From assembly GCA_951406725.2 (NCBI GenBank), contig OX597820.1, forward strand, positions 124,434,001 through 124,498,000: DNA of 64,000 nucleotides, given 5' to 3'. This DNA is from Octopus vulgaris (taxonomy: Eukaryota). This document shows positions 3,201-62,005 of this stretch, piece after piece. The notes below the pieces were generated by a model, which worked only from the letters and a program-made list of their open reading frames with translations, did not search any database and was not told the origin of the DNA. The position numbers and the translations under genes were made by a program. Positions within the stretch are counted from its first letter, which is position 1, and each line of letters opens with the position of its first letter.

Positions 3201-3289
3201 ACTTCCCTGAAGAGAAGATTTCATTGTTTTACACCATTTTATTCCTTTGGAATAATATCAGTGATATCTTCGAAACATATATCGGAAGT
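3201..3289 (+). ncRNA. Type I hammerhead motif, one stem III mismatch
   Basis: acttcc-CTGAAGA-gaagat...atcttc-GAAAC-ATAT-ATC-ggaagt. Stems I and II are 6 bp each. ATC replaces the GTC seen in the paralogs at 7751 and 50645. Confidence 0.75.
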
Positions 3290-5095: not shown

Positions 5096-5640
5096 CTTCC
5101 ACCCCAAATAGAATTGGTGGGAACGTAAATCCCCAATTTTCCTGCAGTATTCTGAAGTTACTATATTTGTTGATTCCATTGCTCAGACTGAACGGAAATC
5201 TGAGACTAACCGATCAGATAACATTATAAAAAATCATGTGAAAAGTCGACATTCTATGCGTGTTGCTGTCCCAGTTGACAAAAATATATTTCTGAAAGCG
5301 TTTGAGAACCAGAGCAAATATAAAAAAATTGGAGATAGAAATTCGAAGAACGTGGCATCTGAAAGCAATAATAATAATAACTATTTTTATTGATGCACGT
5401 GGAAATATATCAGAAGCTCCAAACTAATATGTAGACCAAATAACTAGCAGCGGGCGACAGGCGCAGGCCTGCCGCTTACGGCCCCGCGGGGCGTGGAGGA
5501 ACGGGAGAAAGCGAGGCGGCGCGAAGGCGGCGGCGGCCCGCCGGGCTGACGGCGTCGTAGGCTGACGTCTCTGGCATCCTAGACCAAATAACTAGCAGCC
5601 ACAGAAATAAGTAAATTGTAAATTTCCCAAGCGGATCAGG
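5096..5640 (+). mobile_element. Degraded 3' fragment of an R4/Dong-like retrotransposon (restriction-like endonuclease region)
   Basis: Nucleotide similarity to 21125-21480 (aaccgatcagataacattat; gagcaaatataaaaaaattggagatagaaattcgaagaacgtggcatctgaaagc, roughly SKYKDLEIEI..W.LK). It follows a TAA run. Confidence 0.65.
5432..5599. other. 128 bp GC-rich insertion (5452-5579) flanked by a perfect 20 bp direct repeat
   Basis: tagaccaaataactagcagc occurs at 5432-5451 and 5580-5599. The insert has 98/128 G+C. Confidence 0.9.
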
Positions 5641-19755: not shown

Positions 19756-19821
19756 ATCACAATTAGGAAGATGATAAAATTGTAAATGGTAATAATAATG
19801 ATAATAATAATAATAATGACA

Positions 19822-21765
19822 ATGAATCCCTAAATGCTGGTGATGTAAAAATTTCGTGTGGCATTTTCCAGGGTGACTCACTGTCACCACTCCTCTTTTG
19901 TTTATCCTTAATACCTCTCTCAAAGCTGCTCAATGACGCGCAGTACGGGTATAAAATGTTTGATAAAAATATAAATCATCTCATTTACATGGATGATTTA
20001 AAGCTTTTTGCAAAAAATGACCAACAACTCAAGGGCTTACTAGCGATAGTCAAACAATTCAGTGACGACATCAGAATGCAATTCGGCCTCGATAAATGTG
20101 CAAAAGCTACCTTTATCAAAGGAAAAATGACAGAAACATCTAACGTTAACCTTGACCAGCAGAATGTCATAAAAGAACTAGACCCAGCGGAGAGCTACAA
20201 GTACCTAGGGGTAATTGAAGGGAACGGAATAAGGCATTCAGAGATGAAGGAAAGGATCAGGAGAGAATGCTATCGAAGAGTGAGAGCAATACTCAAAACA
20301 GAGCTGAATGCAAGAAACAGGATCGAAGCGATCAATGCATTAGCCATACCAGTCGTGACCTACAGTTTCAATATTGTTAACCGGTCAATTACTGAAATAT
20401 GTCAGCTCGACAGAAAAATAAGGAAACCGTTGACAATGCATAGAATGCACCACCCTAAGGCAGATACAGAACGACTCTATCTGCCAAGAAAAGAGGGAGG
20501 CCGTGGTCTTTTGCAACTGGCAATAACAATAAAGATTGCTACAATTGGCCTAGACACCTACCTGAAAAACTCTGAGGACTGGATGTTAAACTTGTCTCAA
20601 AACATGAAAACAAGAAAGCATCATACTCAGTAAGAAAACAGGCAAAGGAATATCTAAGTGAATTCCGAATACAACCAATTTCGGAATTAGAGATAGACAT
20701 ACAAGAAACAAGCACACAAAAAGCTAGGCGCGTGAAAACCCGTGCCAAAACTGCGGCTTTAGATATTCTGAATAATAAATGGCAAGAAAAAACTCTCTAT
20801 GGCAAATACCCAAAGCGAGCGAATAATGCAGATATCGACAAAGCCCTGACCCATCAATGGCTAATGGCCTCTAGCTTAAACTCTGAAACAGAGGGGTTTA
20901 TCATAGCAGCTCAAGATCAATGCCTACCAACAAGAAACTACCAGGCCAACATATTAAAGAACGGCAGTAGCCCAACATGTCGTGTATGCCGACAACAAAA
21001 TGAAACCATTGATAATGTTGTCTCCAAATGCAGTCTTCTAGCGCCTACAGAGTACCTCAACAGGCATGATAGAGCTGCACAATATATTCACTGGGTAATT
21101 TGCTAAAACCTGGATTTGCCCCATGAAAAAAACTGGTGGGAACACAATCCACCTCCAGTGCTTGAAAATGACCACATCTCACTCCTCTGGAACTTCACCA
21201 TTCAAACTGACAGGAAGATAGATGCAAATAGGCCAGACATCATATTGAAAGACTTCAGACAAAGAACATGCCTCCTCATTGATATGACTGTCCCAATCGA
21301 TATAAACGTATCTATCAAGACCTACCAAAAACTGAGCAAATATAAAGATCTTGAAATAGAAATCAGCAAGATGTGGAAGCTGAAGACTAAAACAATACCT
21401 GTTATCATAGGTGCCCTGGGAATGATAGCGAAGGGGACTGATTGCTACCTAACTCAGATACCAGGAAACCCCAAGATGGCAGAGATTCAAAAGATAGTGC
21501 TCATTGGAACTGCTCATATCCTACGCAAAATACTCTCTATGTAATCCCAAGGTTTAAAACAAACTTTTATTTATTTATTTTTTATTTATTTATTTATCTA
21601 TTTATTTTTTTTTAAATGTTATTCTTATGTATTATACATTCACTAGCACAAGACCAAAAAAAAACCCAAATATATGGCACAGAACTTCCAACCTGTTGTC
21701 TCTTGAGGTCTCTGGGTGAGACTTGGAGCCAACTTGTACAGACATAAAGCAAAAGTCAAACATAG
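19822..21765 (+). mobile_element. 5'-truncated R4/Dong-clade non-LTR retrotransposon (RT + CCHC-like + restriction-like endonuclease) in (TAA)n
   Basis: Motifs are GIFQGDSLSPLLF, HLIYMDDLKL, YKYLG, RLYLPRKEGGRGL, CRVC..ETIDNVVSKC, RHD and NRPDIIL..CLLIDMTVP..KLSKYKDL. There is one frameshift (~20588) and one stop (21104-21106). The 3' UTR runs into (TAA)n, and TAA repeats also lie 5'. Confidence 0.92.
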
Positions 21766-27529: not shown

Positions 27530-30394
27530 GTTAATTCAAAGAACATTTATCTTCATTTGTGATTATATAATTCGAGGTATTCAATTTGTTTGTCCCTGTC
27601 ATATAATTCCAATGTTATTGGTATATATTAGGAATTGTTAAAAATTTATAATAGCAATTTTGGGGGAAGAAAATAAATGAAGAAATAATGGATGCATACA
27701 TTTCTTTTTAAAACACGACAGTACAAATAAATTGATTATAATTTGTATAGCAGCTCAAACATTTTAAATAAAGGAACCCACATATATGTTTCAATCTTAT
27801 CAGCTAGTTGGCTAGACTTTCCAAGTGTCTGGATAAATGTTAAGGAAGGTATCATCTTCTAATTAAGTTCGATAACAAACTATGGGCAGGTAATAATATA
27901 CCTAAATGCTTTGATGTGGTAATGGCCTCTTCCGATTCAGCTGAGGCCACTGATTTAGTCCATTCGTATATTTCTACACAAATTTAGTAGGGAATTTCCT
28001 GAAATAGGTGGTGGTTTATATAGGGACGACGCACTGGTCATCATTAAAAACCCTTCAAATATAAGCTATAATTAGACAAGAAAAAACTCCAGGAATTCAT
28101 AAAACGTTTTGGATATAAAATTTCTCTTGATGCAGAGCCCAACTCAGTAAGTTTTTTAGGCGTGAATTTTAATCTTATCTCAGGCAAATATGCATCTTCC
28201 CATAAACCCAACTCTAAAATCACCTATATTAACAAAAAAAAGTATTTATATTCAGCTTAATACAAATTGTTTAGGTAATATCATTGAAAGAAGAATACAT
28301 TTTCTCTCATGCAATGAAGATATCATTAATGATAGCAAGGAAATATATAATATTGCACTGGAAAAGGCTAGATTTACACAAAAAATTAGATATATTGTGC
28401 AGGATTTAAATACAGTTAATAATAAACACAAACATGTCTATATATCAAAGCTACAACTTAAGTACTAATAACCTAACGACCGAATCGTTGAATAACGCTA
28501 TAAATATCAATAACACAGTTAATAGATCACGCAATAAATATATATCGAACAGAGGCAAAAGACATAAATATACCGTAACAGAATCCAAAAAGAAATACAC
28601 CTGCAGATCAAAGCCAATTCTTATACTGACAATAATGAAAGAAGCATACACATCATACACCCTAATAATGCTAAACACAAAGTTATGGCAATAATCACAT
28701 GGATATAAATGATATATCAACCTCTGCTGAGGCAGCAAGAGCATATGTCCGCCCATAAATTATTGCAGCTTATTCAACAATACACACAATGTAAAAAAGA
28801 AATAAAAATTGCATACCTTATATTAAATCTAAAATGGAAAACTATCATAATCCAACTTCTAGTAATAATAGAATAAAGAAAAATATATCCTGGTTAATTT
28901 AACCCTTCGCCACACAAGTAAAATCTAATTTGATTACTATAATACACAGGTTGATAAATAAACAGTTTTATATTGATAACAAATATAGGGAATTATTCCA
29001 CAGCAGTTATTTTTCGGTATGCCTTTTCAGTTACTCGTAAATTATTTAGATACATATCATCTCTAAATTCTCCTAAACTACATAAATGTTACGCCAAGCG
29101 TATACCCAATCTACACCCAAAATAAAGAACATTCAAATGCTCCATTCTCACATGACAATCAATGGGAGATTACTCGCCCCAAACAATCTGTCATTTCCAA
29201 AGGCTATATGAGTGATTGTAGAGTTAAAGATCAATGTAAATTTAAGAATTACTGCAAAAGAAAGAATTTAGTATACCAAGCTATAGTTGAAACTGGCGGT
29301 TAACACTTCTTCTATATAGGTTCCTCGAAAAGTTTTATGAAAGCCAGAATCACGAACCATGTATATTCTTTCTGAAATACTAATAAACGTACTTCGACTA
29401 ATGTTAGTAAATCCATCTAGTGAAAAATATAAGGATATATGTTTTAGAATTAGATAGACAATTTTATCTCATGCCAAAACATTTCATCCCCCAGATAAAT
29501 AATGTCAACTCTGTACATCCGAACGTTTTAACATTACTTTTCTTCTTAAAGTTATTAAACGACAGGGTCGAAAATTTCTTCCCATGCTTATACAATTATA
29601 AATATCTATTCTATAAATACAATTAATCATTCTAAAATTACTAATATCACTTAGAGTGTTTGATCTGACATGCACTATTAATAATATACTTAATATGCAA
29701 CCCAATTAATTAGACATCTATTAGGTTCAGAGTTTAAATCTATAAATTTTGTATTTACATATCAAATACGGTATGCATATTAAATAGTTCCATTGTATTT
29801 TAGTATATTCATAAATAACTATTCCATAAATACCATTAACTCTTCTATAATCAGTTATATCACTTATATATTTTTTGATCTAATATTTGCCATTAATAAT
29901 TTACTTAAAATGAGGCCCAATTAGTTAGATACCTGTTAGATCCAGAGTTTATACCAATAAGTTTTATATTTCTTTATCAAACCCGGTGCATATGTCAAAT
30001 AGTTCCATTGTATTTTAGGATCCTATCGACAATAGTTCATAAATATATATATATAGAAAGCAAACTATTGTATATATCATTTTCATTTTTTCTTTCTCAC
30101 TTCCGTTATTTTCGAATTTAACACCCGGTGCACATATCAAATTATTAAATATTCTTATAGTAAATAATCTTTAAATGAGAACGTTGATATATTGCCTCAT
30201 TACATACAAACTCCTTAGAATTATTAATATCAGGCGTAGGAGTGGCTGTGTGGTAAATAGCTTGCTTACGAACGACATGGTTCGGGGTTCAGTCCCACTG
30301 CGTGGCACCTTGAGTAAGTGTCTTCTGCTATAGTCTCGGGCCGACCAAAGCCTTGTGAGTGGATTTGGTAGACGGAAACTGAAAGAAGCCCGTC

Positions 30395-34610: not shown

Positions 34611-34721
34611 TAGAGTAGTGTAGTTATCTGGAAGCAGTGTGTATTGTTTGTAAAATATAATGTATATTGATTGGCACAACAACGCACTATTATAACAACA
34701 ATGGACTTGAGTAACTGATAT

Positions 34722-35946
34722 AATTTAATCATCCATAGTCGTATATAATATTTCGGAAAACAAAAATTCCTTCTTCAGATATCCTAAGGAATTGATTGAG
34801 TCACTGCTATAATAGGTTTTCCAACGGTTGTTTCTGGAAGTTTCTCTGCAGTGGTCTGACGAAGCTACTTCCGGAATTCCTCATTAGGAGTGCGTAAGGG
34901 CGGCTATGCCTCAAGCTCGTGTGTGCTGGGACATCAGTAGCGCTGCTTTTAAGTTATGTATTATACGTGCTGTCTCCTCTTTTGTTACTTTTTTTATAAA
35001 TAATACTTGATCATATTATCAAAAAATGAACTTACACGCATCCAGATGTAGCTAAATAATATATTGACTGACAACCCCCAGCCTGTTGTTAATTTCGGGC
35101 CCTATTCTGTTTATGATGTTAGCTTCCTTACTACCTGGATTACCTAAATTTCTTTCATTGGCTTCAGTTTTGACTGTTACTCTTTTGTCAGTGTTCCGGC
35201 ATCTGTCTAGATGCTTTCTGAAGGAGTAACCACATAGAACTTGCTGTATTTGTTACATTGCATTCTATACACAACAGTTACCCGTTGGTATAAATCTGTG
35301 TCACGGATGGGGCAGCTTGCTAGTGTGCATCGATTGCTGTCCCTTACTCGTTTCTTCTCGAGGTGTTTTCTCAGAGAGGGGCCAGAGTAGGCTAGTTGTA
35401 TGTCTAGTCCTTCTCTTTTTATAGTTCTTCGGATGGCTGTTGTTCTCCTCCCGTTAAAATGGAGGTATTTCAAGGAAGCATGTGTTGCTGTTTTCTGTGT
35501 GTTCGGCGTGTTTGTATTTCCACCGAGTGGAAGTGATGAACTGTACTTAACAGAACAAGACAGAGTAGGGCCAGAAATTAACAACAAGCTCCAGGTTGTC
35601 AGTCAATATGTTATTTCGTTACATCTGGATGCGTGTAAGTTCATTTTTGATAACATGTTCATGTATTAACTATAAAAAAGTAACAAATATGGAAACTGCA
35701 CCTATAATACACAACTTAGAAGCAGCGCTACGGATGTTCCAGCACACAAAAGCTTGAGGCATAGCCACCCTCGCGCAATTCTCATAAGAAATTCGGGAAG
35801 GCACTTCGTGAAAGTACTGCAGGGGCGCTCCTAGCAAACAAACTTTGTAAAACCGATTATAGTAGTGACTCAATCAATTTCTACGAATATATGGAGAAGT
35901 AATTTTTGTTTTCCGAAATATTATATCAGATAATGGATGATTAAAT
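34722..35946 (-). mobile_element. Penelope-like element 3' fragment (GIY-YIG) with inverted terminal duplication
   Basis: Minus-strand CTLASCPI...VVYRMQCNKYSKFYVV and the terminal EANIINRIGPEINNR. 34722-35110 and 35561-35946 are diverged inverted copies. Confidence 0.8.
34743..34782 (-). ncRNA. Minimal type I hammerhead motif
   Basis: Reverse complement: atat-CTGAAGA-A-ggaa tttttgtt ttcc-GAAAT-ATT-atat. Stem III is the loopless palindrome AATATT. The inverted copy (~35887-35926) has a degenerate core. Confidence 0.6.
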
Positions 35947-36024
35947 GACAACAGCTAGTAAAGTGCATTGTTGTGCCATTCAAGACACATTATATCATAC
36001 ACAGACACACACAGACACACACGC

Positions 36025-41824: not shown

Positions 41825-41926
41825 TCGGGGTGAGTACTTGATAATTGTAAGCACCTGTATATACCGTTTGGTGGTGTAGGTGGAGGAGTAAATTGATCAA
41901 AATAAAAGCATGATGCCAAGGATTCA

Positions 41927-42004
41927 GCGGTACATATGTTTCGGGCCTTTATTAGACAGATTTATAACAATGCATAATGTATGTCTGTGGCCTTCTTCAG
42001 CCGC
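41927..42004 (-). ncRNA. Type I hammerhead motif
   Basis: Reverse complement: gcgg-CTGAAGA-a-ggcc acaga...tctgt...ggcc c-GAAAC-ATAT-GTA-ccgc. Stem III is the palindrome ACATATGT, and the triplet is GUA. Confidence 0.75.
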
Positions 42005-42281
42005 GCACAACAACTTCCACAAGGACATGTGTTACATCAAAAATTCTTGGTTGGGGATGCAAATCCTCTCATTCGAGTACGACATAATGCGGCAGTAGCA
42101 TAGAATTGAAGCGTCCATCTCGTTCTTCTCTCAATGCAGAATGATTTTACATTGAGAGAAGAACGAGATGGACGCTTCAATTCTATGCTGCTGCCGCATT
42201 ATGTCGTACGCGAATGAGAGGATTTGCATCCCCAACCAAGAATTTTTGATGTAACACATGTCCATGTGGAAGTTGTTGTGC

Positions 42282-42359
42282 GCGGCTGAAGTAGGCCACA
42301 GACATACATTATGCATTGTTATAAATCTGTCTAATAAAGGCCCGAAACATATGTACCGC
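42282..42359 (+). ncRNA. Inverted HHR copy with core substitution (CTGAAGT)
   Basis: Mirror of 41927-42004, with A9 changed to T. Confidence 0.6.
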
Positions 42360-42392
42360 TGAATCCTTGGCATCATGTTTTTATTTTGATCA

Positions 42393-42433
<41 letters not shown>

Positions 42434-46804: not shown

Positions 46805-47640
46805 TGATAATAATAATAATAATGAATTCTTTATCAACCACAAGGGTTTACATTAAGAAAGTCATTATGGACGGCACAGGACAAGACAAAGAATGTGAGT
46901 GCGTCTTGCTGTGAATGTTTTGCGAGTAAACATGACTATCAAAATAAAAAAAAGAAGAGAGAAATCAAATATGTCTAATCTTCAATATAGAGGAGACGTT
47001 CGGGGGCTGCTCATAGAAAACACCCATAAAATACCATGGGTAACCTGACTTTCGAGGAAAGTGCATTTTTCCTTGACTTTTTCCCAACTACAGGCCCGTT
47101 CACTCGCACCATTCTCGCCACTTTCATCCAACTTTCAGAGAACTGGCTAGAAGAAACCATTTCCTTCTCTACCCTTATTTTACTTTTCAAGTGAAACATA
47201 AAGTAGTTCTTCCGGGATTGGCCAAAGAGAAAAATATTTGTCTTCAGACACGTCAATCTCGTCCACCATACAAGCTCTTCCGCCATGCCACCGAGAGGCT
47301 AGCCATTGGGTCCCACATTTGAAACACTCAGACGTTGTTTTAACGAAGGTCTGAGAGATCTTTCTCGAAAAAGTGGCCCTGTTGTACTTTTCGTTCGTTT
47401 TTTTCAACAAAAATACTGCTTTCATCTGTTCTCTTTTTCAGCGCGAAGTCGCTTCTCACACTCTCTTTTATTGACGTTTAGGGACGGTCCTCACTCTCGC
47501 CCCCTCTCTCACATATGAGCGTCACCATGTTATTTTGTGTGTTTTCCATGTTGGTGGGGAAAACGCAAACAACTATGGCTGAAAAACAATATCAGTTGAT
47601 CTTTTTCCCCAAACTAGGGGACAAAACAGGGTCAGGTCCA
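46805..47640 (-). mobile_element. Deleted LINE (L1/Tx1-like ORF2 C-terminus, 3' UTR, (ATT)n tail)
   Basis: The peptide EELVWWTRL...FMFHLKSKIRVEK...F.E.W resembles Tx1/L1 ORF2 ends. The minus strand terminates gataaagaattcattattatt. The clade call is tentative. Confidence 0.5.
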
Positions 47641-48210
47641 GGTTTTTGCAAATTACCCAGTGAATATATTGTGCAGTTCTATCATCCCTGTTGAAATATT
47701 TTGTAGGGACAAGACGACTGCACATAGAGACAGCATGATCAACGGTTTCATTTTGTTGTTGATATATACGACATGTGCTACTGCCATTCTATATTATATT
47801 GGCCTGATAGTTTCTTGGAGGTAGGCATTGATCTTAAGCTGCTATGATAAACGCTTCCGTTCCTGATTTTATGCCAGAAGCCATTAACCATCATCGGTAA
47901 GGGCTTTGTCCGTATCAGCATTATCAGCTCTCTTGGAGTACTTGCCATTGTGAGGTTTACTAAGGCAGCACGTTAAGCTTTTTCTGTGATTATTTCTAGT
48001 ACGTCTAAATCTGAAATTTATTGTATTTGGAATTCACTTATATATTATTTTGCCTGTTTTGTTACTGGGTATGATGCTTTCTTCTTTTCATGTTTCAGAA
48101 TTTTTTTCAGGCAGGTGTGGAGGCCAATTGTGGCAATCGTCATTGTTAATTTTAATTTTAACGTTAGATGTTTCTGTCATTTTCCTTTGATAAAGGTAGC
48201 TTTTGCACAT
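47640..48210 (-). mobile_element. Deleted fragments of an R4/Dong-like element adjoining (TAA)n
   Basis: Reverse-complement matches to 20097-20148, 20540-20700, 20800-20925 and 20975-21110. Confidence 0.85.
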
Positions 48211-48259
48211 TAACTTATTATTATTCTTATTGTTGTTGTTGCTGTCATTATAATGATAA

Positions 48260-49943: not shown

Positions 49944-49946
<3 letters not shown>

Positions 49947-50772
49947 TAAGTAGCTGAATGAATTATCCTAGTATGGATAATTCGGTTAACCGATACCCGG
50001 GTATCGAATTTACATCAGAAAGCACTGCACTGGCAGAAACACACCTTCCACTCATATGAATGATGATTAATATAGATAACCTCCTTGAATTTAATAATTT
50101 GGTTCCACATCTACAACAACACCATAGATAAATTTTTTTATACTCCGTTACTTGAAGGCCTACTACCAAATTCGTTGGGGTATGTTCAACCTTTGTCTCT
50201 CTACCTCTCCCCCCTCTCTCTCTCTCTCTCCCTCTCTCTATCATGAGCACAATCGAACACACAGACACAAACCTGTCACTTCACCACTAGATATATTTAG
50301 CATTATCCCCCACACAAACAATCACGCACACATATACACACACATAGACACGAATGCAGTTATATACATATACACACATAGGCACTCAATCTCATTGGCA
50401 AAGCAAACAACAATGCATCACCATACATACGACTTGCACTCTGTCACCCCCCTATTCTTAGAACCTGCCCCTTCCAACCATTTTTGAACTCTTGAACTTT
50501 TTAGAATCTTATCCATCCAACTAATTTTGACGTCACTGCTTATAACGGAATATTTTAAAGAAACACTCATTATCACTATGGACTCCGTGTAGGCAGTCAT
50601 CTAAAAGTTTTTGTTCGTCATGATGCTGACATAAGTTCCTTGTCTTTCCTGATGAGAAGACGGCATAATGCACCCTTTATTCCTTCGGAATTAAGAATAT
50701 GCAGTCTTCGAAACACATGTCGAGAACAAAGGAATTTTGTTAAATCGTCGTTGGACTCCATTCTTTCATTTA

Positions 50773-50807
<35 letters not shown>

Positions 50808-51662
50808 TACATATATATATATATATGTTTAAGTAGCTGAATGAATTATCCTAGTATGGATAATTCGGTTAACCGATACCCGGGTATCAAATTTACATCA
50901 GAAAGCACTGCACTTTCGGCCTCACTTTTCAAAGAATACTGAAGGAGTGGCTCTCTAGACAGGACATTTTCCACTCATATGAATGATGATTAATATAGAT
51001 AACCTCCTTGAATTTAATAATTTGGTTCCACATCTACAACAACACCATAGACACATTTTTTTATACTCCGTTACTTGAAGGCCTACTACCAAATTCGTTG
51101 GGGTATGTTCTACCTTTGTCTCTCTACCTCCGCCCTCTCTCTCTCTCCCTCTCTCTATCATAAGCACAATCGAACACACAGACACAAACCTATCACTTCA
51201 CCACTAGATATATTTAGCATTATCCCCCACAAAAACAATCACGCACACATATACACACACAGTCACGAATGCAGTTATATAGATATACACACATAGGCAC
51301 TCAATCTCATTGGCAAAAGCAAACAACAACGCATCACCATACATACGACTTGCACCCTGTCACCCCACTATTCTCAGAACCTGCCCCTTCCAACCATTTT
51401 TGAACTCTTCAACTTTTTAGAATCTTATCCATCCAACTAATTTTGACGTCACTGCTTATAACGTAATATTTTAAAGAAACACTCATTATCACTATGGACA
51501 CCGTGTAGGCAGTCATCTAAACGTTTTTGTTCGTCATGATGCTGACATGAGTTCCTTGTCCGCTTTATTCCTTCGGAATTAAGAATATGCAGTCTTCGAA
51601 ACATATGTCGAGAACAAAGGAATTTTGTTAAATCGTCGTTAGACTCCATTCTTTCATTTATC
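49944..51662 (+). mobile_element. Two direct copies (~830 bp) of an HHR-bearing element, each bounded by (TA)n
   Basis: 49944-50774 and 50827-51662 align end to end with scattered substitutions and indels. Confidence 0.9.
50645..50725 (+). ncRNA. Type I hammerhead ribozyme motif, intact core
   Basis: tttc-CTGATGA-gaagac g gcata...tatgc a gtcttc-GAAAC-ACAT-GTC-gaga. Predicted cleavage is after C50721. Confidence 0.85.
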
Positions 51663-51680
51663 TATATATATATATATCCC

Positions 51681-52571: not shown

Positions 52572-52616
<45 letters not shown>

Positions 52617-52898
52617 CAACAATTGAGGGTAAAATTAATTAATTATTAATCAATTTCACCAAGTGTTCAGTATGCAAAGGGACCATTTAAGGCGAATTAA
52701 AATTATTACATTATATAAAAGGGCTTAGTAAAATAAATTACTTTGCCGCATACTGAACTCATTAGAAATAGCAGCTAAAAAACTTTTTTAAAACTATTTC
52801 TAATACTTAAAGAAAACCTCTCTCATATAGTGTTTGCTCAACTCAACTCACGAAAGTTTGGGGGTAAAGACATCAAAAAATCAAATGCAAAGGTTATT

Positions 52899-52950
52899 TG
52901 AGAACGTACGTTTCAAGATTAGTCAACACGACACTTCTATCATCAGCTCA
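52899..52950 (-). ncRNA. Hammerhead-like motif, unit 1
   Basis: Reverse complement: tgag-CTGATGA-taga agt gtc gtgtt gac taa tctt-GAAAC-GTAC-GTT-ctca. Stem III is the palindrome AACGTACGTT. The U10.1/U11.1 pair and GUU triplet are non-canonical. Confidence 0.65.
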
Positions 52951-53458
52951 GAAACTCCTTGGTTTGGATTTGAAAACACTGAAAGTGAGAGCATACCCTT
53001 TCGGCTTCTCATCGCTTTCGAAGATCTGCTCGTAACTAACAGTGCCAACAAACTCAAATATGCAAGCGAAGAATTTCTGTTCTCCCCTTTCCACCAGCGT
53101 GGGTTAAAATCAGCAAACACTATGCTTATTTCGGTAAAATCCGAAGCATTAATTAGAGGGAGATTAATTATAATTTCAACAATTGAGGGTAAAATTAATT
53201 AATTATTAATCAATTTCACCAAGTGTTCAGTATGCAAAGGGACCATTTAAGGCGAATTCAAATTATTACATTATATAAAAGGGCTTAGTAAAATAAATTA
53301 CTTTGCCGCATACTGAACTCATTAGAAATAGCAGCTAAAAAACTTTTTTAAAACTATTTCTAATACTTAAAGAAAACCTCTCTCATATAGTGTTTGCTCA
53401 ACTCAACTCACGAAAGTTTGGGGGTAAAGACATCAAAAAATCAAATGCAAAGGTTATT

Positions 53459-53510
53459 TGAGAACGTACGTTTCAAGATTAGTCAACACGACACTTCTAT
53501 CATCAGCTCA
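53459..53510 (-). ncRNA. Hammerhead-like motif, unit 2
   Basis: Identical to 52899-52950. Confidence 0.65.
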
Positions 53511-54016
53511 GAAACTCCTTGGTTTGGATTTGAAAACACTGAAAGTGAGAGCATACCCTTTCGGCTTCTCATCGCTTTCGAAGATCTGCTCGTAACTAAC
53601 AGTGCCAACGAACTCAAATATGCAAGCGAAGAATCTCTGTTCTCCCCTTTCCACCAGCGTGGGTTAAAATCAGCAAACACTATGCTTATTTCGGTAAAAT
53701 CCGAAGCATTAATTAGAGGGAGATTAATTATAATTTCAACAATTGAGGGTAAAATTAATTAATTATTAATCAATTTCACCAAGTGTTCAGTATGCAAAGG
53801 GACCATTTAAGGCGAATTCAAATTATTACATTATATAAAAGGGCTTAGTAAAATAAATTACTTTGCCGCATACTGAACTCATTAGAAATAGCAGCTAAAA
53901 AACTTTTTTAAAACTATTTCTAATACTTAAAAAAACCTCTCTCATATAGTGTTTGCTCAACTCAACTCACGAAAGTTTGGGGTAAAGACATCAAAAACTC
54001 AAATGCAAAGGTTATT

Positions 54017-54068
54017 TGAGAACGTACGTTTCAAGATTAGTCAACACGACACTTCTATCATCAGCTCA
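54017..54068 (-). ncRNA. Hammerhead-like motif, unit 3
   Basis: Identical to 52899-52950. Confidence 0.65.
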
Positions 54069-54330
54069 GAAACTCCTTGGTTTGGATTTGAAAACACTGA
54101 AAGTGAGAGCATACCCTTTCGGCTTCTCATCGCTTTCGAAGATCTGCTCGTAACTAACAGTGCCAACAAACTCAAATATGCAAGCGAAGAATTTCTGTTC
54201 TCCCTTTCCACCAGCGTGCATATTTGAGTTTGTTGGCACTGTTAGTTACGAGCAGATCTTCGAAAGCGATGAGAAGCCGAAAGGGTATGCTCTCACTTTC
54301 AGTGTTTTCAAATCCAAACCAAGGAGTTTC

Positions 54331-54382
54331 TGAGCTGATGATAGAAGTGTCGTGTTGACTAATCTTGAAACGTACGTTCTCA
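54331..54382 (+). ncRNA. Hammerhead-like motif, inverted copy
   Basis: tgagCTGATGAtagaagtgtcgtgttgactaatcttGAAACgtacGTTctca, read directly on the plus strand. Confidence 0.65.
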
Positions 54383-54459
54383 AATAACCTTTGCATTTGA
54401 TTTTTTGATGTCTTTACCCCCAAACTTTCCTTCTTCAAATCCAACACATATATATATAT

Positions 54460-60297: not shown

Positions 60298-60333
60298 CAC
60301 ACACATACATACAAACGTATGTATAAATATATA

Positions 60334-61158
60334 GCAAGTCGTAACTAGTCGATCCTACGACTACCTACCGCGAGTGCGCGTATGCATTAATTGTTTGCGC
60401 GTATGCAAAAAAAACAGGGTTCGTTTTTAAAGCAAAATAAATAATTTTTTATACAAAGTAAATATTTTTACACTAAGTAAATATTTTAAACAAAGTAAAT
60501 AATTTTTTTTTAAAACAAAGTAAATATTTTTTTCTTCTCAACAAAATAAATATTTTTTTAAAATAAATTAAATAAAATACCTGCTTTTGGTCCCCCCACA
60601 CCATCATAGTCTTAAAACCTCGTTTTACGTTCTTCTAATAACTTTCAACCGAATTTCTATGAACATTTGCTTTTTACTCTTTTCCTTGTTTCAGTCATTT
60701 GAGTGTGACCATGCTGGAGCACCGCATTTAGTCGAGCAAATCGATTCCAGGACTTCTTCCTTGTAAACCTAGTACTTATTCTATCGGTCTCTTTTGCCGA
60801 ACCGCGAAATTACGGGGACGTAAACACACCGGCATCGGTTGTCAAGCGATGTTTGGGGGACAAACAGACACACAAACATGTACACACGCATACATATATA
60901 CGACGGCTTTTTTCAGTTACCGCCTACCAAATCCACTCATAAGGCTTTGGTTTGCCCGAGGCTATATTAGAAGACACTTGCCCAAGGAGCAGCGCATTGG
61001 GACTGAGCCCGGAACCATGAGATTCGTAAGTTTGTTTAGAAAAAATAATTTACTTTGTTTAAACAATTACTTTTGTTTAGAAAAAAAACCCATCCATTAA
61101 TTTGCATACGCGCACTAGCGCTCGGTAGTCGTTGTAGAATCGTCTAGTCACGACTAGC
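60334..61158. mobile_element. MITE with long imperfect TIRs and TA TSD, interrupted by a SINE
   Basis: Left gcaagtcgtaactagtcgatcctacgactacc...gtgcgcgtatgca versus right tgcatacgcgcac...ggtagtcg..tagaatcgtctagtcacgactagc. TA occurs on both sides. Confidence 0.75.
60672..61030 (-). mobile_element. SINE family A (5'-truncated) nested in the MITE
   Basis: Reverse match to the 51771 copy. Confidence 0.85.
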
Positions 61159-61341
61159 TAGTCCGGTTGCGCGAGTACGCGAGTGCGCGCATCAGGACTA
61201 CTCTTCTACTATAAATCTACTATAATCTACTATAAATGAAAATTGTCGAAAATATTGTGACATATATCATTTGAGATGATTATTTTGTTGTTGCTTTTGT
61301 TTTTGTTCTGATTTGTTTTTGTTCTGATTCGGTGCCGATAT

Positions 61342-61459
61342 ATGGTCAGACATCACGGAGTTTCGGTTTTAGTTGTGTTTAATATATTCCTTCTTTCAAC
61401 CTCTTTCGGCCTCACTTTTCAAAGAATACTGAAGGAGTGGCTCTCTAGACAGGACAAGT
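61342..61459 (+). CDS. Possible first coding exon of a secreted protein (unverified)
   Basis: MVRHHGVSVLVVFNIFLLSTSFG-LTFQRILKEWLSRQDK has a signal-peptide-like profile and is followed by a GTATGT donor at 61460. TATAAA occurs at 61210 and 61231. No downstream exon was found. Confidence 0.3.
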
Positions 61460-61465
61460 GTATGT

Positions 61466-61575
<110 letters not shown>

Positions 61576-62005
61576 AGAAACATCAGGAGCAGTTGTTATT
61601 GTGGGAGTAATAGTCGAGGTGGTGAGAGCAGTAATAGTAATGACAATTGTTTTATTCGTGGTGGTGGCGGCAGCGGTAGTAGCAGTAAAGGCAAAGGTGG
61701 GTGGCAGTGGTAGTAGTAGCAATGTTGGTATTAAAATAGTGTGTATTTGCACGAAATAATACAAGTAGCTATTATGGTATTCGCAATCATAGAGATTATA
61801 AAGGCATTTTTAATATCATTAATAAAATATTTAAGTTATTAACTAAAAAGAAAAGAAGTGAGGAGAAAAGTTAACGGAAAACCGGGAAATAAGAGGAATT
61901 ATTAAAAAAATATAATAGTGTGCAAATAAATAAAACCAAATAAAGATAAATTAACATTAACAAATACATAAGCCTAAAAGAGCCGATAAAAGAAAATATA
62001 GTATA

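What the first reader, a model, noticed from the sequence alone, without database searches (positions are those of the whole stretch)
50913..50966. 54 bp templated insertion identical to a site 10.5 kb downstream
Seen: in the second repeat copy, the segment ggcagaaacacacc of copy 1 (50032-50045) is replaced by ctttcggcctcacttttcaaagaatactgaaggagtggctctctagacaggaca. This is a perfect 54/54 match to 61403-61456 in the same orientation, with ct and aca microhomologies at the junctions. The donor lies in the candidate exon and ends 3 nt before its putative splice donor. Inference: a recent break repaired by template switching (Pol theta/MMBIR-type) to a nearby locus, or possibly to its RNA.
Basis: partly seen in the sequence, partly recalled or inferred. 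Interest (0 to 1): 0.7.

Follow-up and report, generated by a model that had tools for sequence, protein, structure and literature searches.

The report
Short local DNA patch in repeat
A 54-base stretch inside one copy of a decayed tandem repeat is identical to a site 10.5 kb away, and is most likely an ordinary scar left when a DNA break was patched by copying nearby DNA.

Summary
The match is real in the assembly: 50913-50966 equals 61403-61456 at 54 of 54 bases, same strand, 10,490 bp apart, and occurs nowhere else in the window. It replaces 14 bases of the sister copy. 'Recent' is not shown: the tandem copies differ at 23 of 778 sites, so a perfect match has probability 0.2-0.45 even at the duplication's age. 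The acceptor is a hammerhead-bearing, Penelope/retrozyme-like unit between TA tracts. The donor 'exon' reads like a signal peptide but has no relative in any protein search and no expression evidence. No reads were laid and no genome is held, so assembly error, polymorphism and genome-wide uniqueness stay open. Best reading (0.6): a class-2-type templated insertion, primed at microhomology on a nearby DNA template and closed by end joining. RNA templating is possible but unsupported. Known kind of event; low interest.

The parts
50913..50968 (+). Inserted patch: CT overlap (50913-50914), 52 donor-derived bases (50915-50966), 2 added bases TT (50967-50968); replaces the equivalent of 50032-50045
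61403..61456 (+). Donor: 54 of 54 identical, intact, 10 bp before a (GTA)n tract starting at 61466
49944..50777 (+). Tandem copy 1 (uninserted state); hammerhead-bearing, Penelope/retrozyme-like unit between TA tracts
50827..51665 (+). Tandem copy 2 (carries the patch 86 bp from its start; hammerhead core removed by a 28-bp deletion near 51560); 23 of 778 aligned sites differ from copy 1
50030..50046 (+). Equivalent empty site in copy 1: CT, the 14 bases lost in copy 2, and the rejoin point
50636..50734 (+). Type I hammerhead motif: core at 50649, G-C closing pair of a long helix II, GAAA at 50710, palindromic minimal helix III, GUC triplet at 50719-50721, helix I pairing
   Evidence: features from PMC4209133 passages; no Rfam hit
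61342..61459 (+). Candidate first coding exon around the donor (39 codons, signal-peptide-like, GTATGT at 61460); unproven
   Evidence: blank searches
60332..61160 (.). Inverted arms (60332-60465 and 61046-61160) around a SINE-like repeat: likely a MITE/foldback element, so the CpG-rich stretch upstream of the candidate exon may be element DNA rather than a promoter
   Evidence: the class name is inference

Best explanation
Copy 2 of the tandem carries a 52-base copy of a site 10.5 kb downstream in place of 14 of its own bases, likely made when a germline break was repaired by copying nearby DNA in cis. Inferred steps: a break formed in copy 2, about 90 bp from a TA tract, after the unit had been duplicated; 14 bases were lost; the left 3' end paired by CT (CACT against CTCT, 3 of 4) with the donor; a polymerase copied 52 bases and let go; two T were added by slippage or error; the end was joined back to the right flank. 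The donor stayed intact. The patch sits in a dead element and is predicted to have no function. Shown: identity, junction bases, divergence of the copies, intact donor. Inferred: break, direction, template type, enzyme.
For: 54 of 54 identity at 10,490 bp, same strand, one other site in 64 kb. Deletion plus 2-nt overlap at one end and added bases at the other, no target duplication and no poly(A): these are the class 2 TSIP features (PMC5110952, parts 1-2 of 4). One overlap end plus one blunt end was 59% of insertions in a human assay, read there as microhomology invasion finished by NHEJ (bioRxiv 10.1101/2022.09.30.509517, passages). Germline templated insertions of this type number about 100 in each of two people (103 and 99; PMC8421209, passages). 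Polymerase errors cluster where templated synthesis stops (PMC5068794, passages), which fits the TT. Both copies start at the same base and are followed by TA tracts with the same embedded CTACA, which suggests DNA-level duplication first and the patch later (inference). No GATC, GANTC, AAGCTT, CATG, TTAA or CTNAG site at either locus junction, so a Hi-C ligation chimera at those sites is not indicated.
Against: No reads support the junctions here and no genome is held, so uniqueness of the donor beyond 64 kb is untested. An overlap of 2 nt or more arises by chance with probability about 0.19. With only two copies the ancestral state is not polarised by a third; no other copy of the unit's 5' part was found in the window. 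A window scan can only see near donors, so nearness is partly an ascertainment effect. The donor falls in one of only 2 signal-peptide-like ATG-to-GT stretches in the window, which would favour a transcribed template if the exon is real. In the human TSI work, reverse-transcriptase inhibitors cut such insertions more than three-fold.
Confidence: 0.6

Rival explanations
1. The patch was copied from RNA (or cDNA, or an R-loop) of a gene whose first coding exon holds the donor, by a LINE or Penelope reverse transcriptase acting at the break.
For: Insert is sense to the candidate exon and to the hammerhead strand. The 39-codon frame is signal-peptide-like: best 10-residue hydropathy 3.06; 0.03% of 20,000 local shuffles pass the same filter (the filter was tuned on this candidate). 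Human TSIs are enriched in transcribed sequence and RT-inhibitor sensitive; over 70% of donors were promoters or gene bodies in Indel-Seq. A Penelope protein cuts both strands of its own element DNA and extends on RNA in vitro (PMC11167929, main text part 1 of 2).
Against: Insert stops 3 nt short of the putative splice site, so it has no RNA-only mark; no edited base. No relative of the peptide (weak blanks). The same filter fires 0.9 times per shuffled window against 2 observed. Upstream CpG-rich stretch is an inverted-repeat arm. The Penelope protein above needed the first 172 nt of its own ORF in the RNA and preferred an ATT motif; the patch is about 640 bp from the hammerhead and not at a unit junction. 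A donor 10.5 kb away needs no diffusible template.
Confidence: 0.17
2. The 54-mer belongs to a dispersed repeat; the true template lies elsewhere and the 10.5-kb neighbour is a sibling copy.
For: The window is dense in elements and the donor lies between a likely MITE arm and a (GTA)n tract.
Against: No third copy or diverged relative in 64 kb at E up to 10 or by nhmmer, whereas the common SINE-like repeat has several diverged copies in the window. Perfect identity to a neighbour would be a coincidence for an old family. No Rfam match, no Pfam match in the three minus frames or the plus frame of the exon.
Confidence: 0.1
3. Assembly or polishing artefact: a chimeric read or a local misassembly put the 54-mer into copy 2.
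For: No read-level support was obtained. Perfect identity is what an artefact gives. The site lies in a two-copy repeat.
Against: The window has no N and resolves 99%-identical 560-bp units, which suggests long reads (inference). A chimera gives one junction, this needs two plus a 14-nt loss and 2 added bases. No common Hi-C enzyme site at the junctions.
Confidence: 0.08
4. Direction reversed: the 54-mer is ancestral in the element, copy 1 lost it with a 14-nt filler, and 61403 is the recipient.
For: The 14-mer of copy 1 shares CAGAAA with its left flank 17 bp upstream, as a local filler would.
Against: A 6-mer repeat nearby is not rare by chance (estimate, not computed). Copy 1 keeps a frame running through the site, and the reading frame at 61342 runs unbroken into the 54-mer. 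It needs two events instead of one.
Confidence: 0.05

Closest known systems
Class 2 templated sequence insertion polymorphisms (Onozawa and Aplan 2016, PMC5110952; parts 1-2 of 4 read)
   Same: Copy of another locus with donor intact, micro-deletion, microhomology, non-templated bases, no target duplication, no poly(A).
   Different: Those donors are mostly distant and experimental inserts were 73-414 bp; this one is 52-54 bp, 10.5 kb away in cis, in an invertebrate; polymorphism is untested.
MMBIR-type templated insertions, MMB-TI (PMC8421209; passages)
   Same: Switch to a nearby template at micro(hom)eology and return; accumulate as harmless germline variants.
   Different: Only 2 nt overlap on the left, none clean on the right; no copy-number change or further switch seen.
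Indel-Seq insertions at human DSBs (bioRxiv 10.1101/2022.09.30.509517; passages)
   Same: One microhomology end and one blunt end; 2-3 nt overlaps; donors often transcribed.
   Different: Induced breaks in cultured cells; their 100-kb enrichment is around donor-side breaks, not around the acceptor.
POLQ templated inserts in C. elegans (PMC5068794; passages)
   Same: Deletion with templated insert, 1-2 nt priming, errors near the end of synthesis.
   Different: Typically under 25 bp and from the immediate flank; about 3% from distant sites.
Penelope pseudo-LTRs and non-LTR retrozymes (PMC4209133 passages; bioRxiv 10.64898/2026.07.22.740005 part 1 of 5)
   Same: Describes the acceptor: tandem unit with a type I hammerhead and palindromic short helix III.
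   Different: Units are about 880 bp apart and separated by TA tracts; copy 2 has lost the core, so it fails that preprint's definition of an active retrozyme (two consecutive complete motifs).

Membership tests
Class 2 TSIP | Insert copied from another locus, donor not excised | tested here: met
   54 of 54, donor context continuous
Class 2 TSIP | No target-site duplication, no poly(A) | tested here: met
   junctions
Class 2 TSIP | Micro-deletion, microhomology and/or non-templated bases | tested here: met
   14-nt loss, CT overlap, TT added
Class 2 TSIP | Donor maps to a single genomic locus | tested here: inconclusive
   single in 64 kb; no genome held
Class 2 TSIP | Polymorphic and heritable | not tested
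   no reads were laid on the locus
Class 1 TSIP / LINE-mediated retrocopy | Target duplication of 5 bp or more, poly(A), TTTT/A site | tested here: not met
POLQ (TMEJ) templated insert | Short insert templated from the immediate flank | tested here: not met
   52 nt from 10,490 bp away against PMC5068794; minority distant class not excluded
POLQ (TMEJ) templated insert | Genetic dependence on POLQ | not testable with these tools
   needs mutants
MMBIR-type templated insertion | Microhomology or microhomeology at both switches | tested here: inconclusive
   left 2 nt (chance 0.19); right ACA only with CC to TT
RNA-templated insertion | Splice junction, editing or poly(A) in the insert | tested here: not met
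   identical to genomic DNA, ends before the putative donor site; absence does not exclude RNA
RNA-templated insertion | Donor transcribed in germ line | not tested
   no RNA reads laid
Type I hammerhead of PLE/retrozyme (acceptor unit) | Core, G-C closing pair, GAAA, palindromic short helix III, NUH, helix I | tested here: met
   descriptor hits at 93, 50649 and a weak one at 34778(-); shuffle mean 0.02, max 1 in 100; fold z -1.73, 10 of 200 shuffles as good; no Rfam hammerhead hit
Penelope-like element (acceptor unit) | RT and GIY-YIG coding homology | tested here: inconclusive
   a 57-codon read-through resembles PLE RT by recall only; no hit
Active non-LTR retrozyme | Two consecutive units with complete hammerheads | tested here: not met
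   28-bp deletion removes the core in copy 2

The most novel reading that the evidence does not exclude
A Penelope-like enzyme cut a resident copy of its own element and healed it with a fragment of the neighbouring gene's first-exon RNA: a natural, germline, RNA-templated patch made by a PLE reverse transcriptase, and a route for host-exon capture into hammerhead retroelements.
Probability: 0.06. Interest if true: 0.6.

Novelty: new member of a known kind. Interest (0 to 1): 0.2.

Why it matters
As it stands it is one tidy example of a known mutation class, useful because the sister copy preserves the empty site and so shows the junctions exactly. It has no predicted function. It would matter more if a genome-wide census in this animal showed many such patches with donors biased to sense-strand exons, or biased to Penelope-type acceptors, since that would test whether germline breaks are patched from RNA; a single case cannot decide that.

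Tried and rejected
Whole genome: none held. Sequencing runs for 50870-51010: 8 sampled words; 5 of 24 listed rows, in 3 studies, hold 2 to 4 words, none holds all 8; no RNA holder listed. No read-level data were obtained. Donor as a structured RNA: no Rfam match at E up to 10 over 60900-61700; 61342-61460 folds worse than 196 of 200 shuffles; H/ACA or hammerhead readings dropped. Donor as decayed element protein: three minus frames read through and the plus frame gave 0 Pfam families. Candidate exon peptide: 0 hits among longer proteins (2 candidates, none scored), 0 among 22-72 aa proteins, 0 in 1.84 billion representatives, no usable Atlas hit with low recognition; all weak blanks. Unit's RT-like read-through: 0 hits. 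The 54-mer: 0 exact matches in metagenome contigs; 61342-61466: no match in plasmids; neither collection is expected to hold this animal. A second 55-bp, 98% match (48158-48211 against 20095-20149) was considered as a sister event and rejected: it is collinear with an old deleted copy of the same LINE. Earlier-findings look-ups by sequence and place were empty. Literature searches were made; none looked for this locus by name and I make no claim that it is unpublished; no supplements were opened.

Full report
Observation. The 54 bases at 50913-50966 are identical to 61403-61456, same strand, 10,490 bp apart, with no extension on either side and no third copy in the window. Chance expectation is about 10^-23. 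The first site lies in the second unit of a tandem pair (49944-50777, 50827-51665). Alignment shows that CT is shared by the flank and the donor, 52 bases are donor-only, TT is in neither donor nor copy 1, and copy 2 rejoins copy 1 at 50969 = 50046. Fourteen bases were lost. An overlap of 2 or more bases has probability about 0.19 by chance.

Age. Outside indels the two units differ at 23 of 778 sites, 3.0%. A perfect 54-mer therefore has probability 0.20 (both sides drifting) to 0.45 (donor frozen) even if the patch is as old as the duplication, and under a flat prior only 0.14-0.18 of the posterior falls in the youngest tenth. It is younger than or as old as the duplication; 'recent' cannot be read from identity.

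The acceptor. The unit ends in a type I hammerhead motif (core at 50649, G-C closing pair, long helix II, GAAA, palindromic short helix III, GUC at 50719-50721, helix I). A strict descriptor finds 3 hits in the window (93, 50649, and a weak one at 34778 minus) against a mean of 0.02 in 100 shuffles; diverged relatives at 3207 and about 7750 change helix II on both sides. These are the features of metazoan type I and Penelope hammerheads (PMC4209133, passages), and tandem units with them are called non-LTR retrozymes, argued to derive from Penelope-like elements (bioRxiv 10.64898/2026.07.22.740005, part 1 of 5). Against: Rfam gives no hammerhead hit, the fold is only mildly better than shuffles (z -1.73), and the RT-like look of the unit's 5' part is recalled and was not backed. 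Copy 2 lost the core by a 28-bp deletion. Both units begin at the same base and are followed by TA tracts with the same embedded CTACA, so I infer a DNA-level duplication of a resident relic, with the patch arriving afterwards in copy 2, 86 bp from its start. The repeats look like those of an octopus (recalled, from no call); Penelope-like elements are among the recently active families in Octopus vulgaris (PMC13282606, passages), which is context only.

The donor. It lies in a 39-codon frame from ATG 61342 to a GTATGT at 61460 that reads like a signal peptide. A simple filter, tuned on this candidate, passes 2 stretches in the window against 0.9 in block-shuffled windows, and 0.03% of local shuffles. 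So the window could hold such a stretch by chance, though it is notable that the donor falls in it. No protein relative was found (weak blanks), GTATGT is common here (105 copies), and the CpG-rich stretch upstream is one arm of an inverted repeat with 60332-60465. I put the exon at about even odds. It is not a recognisable RNA family and is poorly structured. A (GTA)n tract starts 10 bp after the donor.

Mechanism. Best reading (0.6): a germline break in copy 2, loss of 14 bases, priming by CT on the nearby donor DNA, 52 bases of synthesis, release with two added T, and end joining. This matches class 2 TSIPs (PMC5110952, parts 1-2 of 4), the one-overlap-one-blunt pattern of 59% of insertions in a human assay (bioRxiv 10.1101/2022.09.30.509517, passages) and germline MMB-TIs (PMC8421209, passages). 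It is longer and more distant than typical POLQ inserts (PMC5068794, passages), so the enzyme is not named. RNA templating (0.17) is allowed by orientation and by the literature on TSIs, and a Penelope protein can cut both strands of its own DNA and extend on RNA (PMC11167929, passages and main text part 1 of 2), but that protein needed its own ORF RNA, the patch is not at a unit junction, and the insert carries no RNA-only mark. A repeat-derived donor (0.10), an assembly artefact (0.08) and reversed direction (0.05) remain because no genome is held and no reads were laid. No common Hi-C enzyme site lies at the junctions.

Verdict. Real in the assembly, an ordinary templated repair scar of a known kind, inside a dead hammerhead retroelement. 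Interest 0.2.

Noticed in passing
window 5432-5599: A 128-bp, 77% G+C segment between two copies of a perfect 20-bp direct repeat (5432, 5580): looks like a second foreign or templated insertion, with a target duplication; no Rfam match and no match listed in the window self-search.
   Followed up: partly
window 52609-54429: Three 560-bp head-to-tail units at 99% identity followed by a 216-bp inverted tail: the layout of a young Penelope-type insertion (class is inference).
   Followed up: no
window 41889-42397: A 509-bp near-perfect inverted repeat (97%), a fold-back.
   Followed up: no
window 93, 3207, about 7750: Further type I hammerhead motifs with long helix II; those at 3207 and 7750 are diverged relatives of the one at 50649.
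   Followed up: partly
window 19767-21544 and 47629-48211: A LINE with an RVT_1 match (E 3.9e-13) in three broken frames, and an older deleted copy on the minus strand whose 55-bp piece is 98% identical.
   Followed up: partly
window 60332-61160: Inverted arms with AT-rich internal repeats around a SINE-like repeat, TA at both ends; likely a MITE.
   Followed up: partly
window 28166-28468 and 35207-35602: Frames that resemble Penelope-like element protein pieces by recall; no Pfam match above cut-off; 34695-35110 and 35560-35974 are inverted copies.
   Followed up: no
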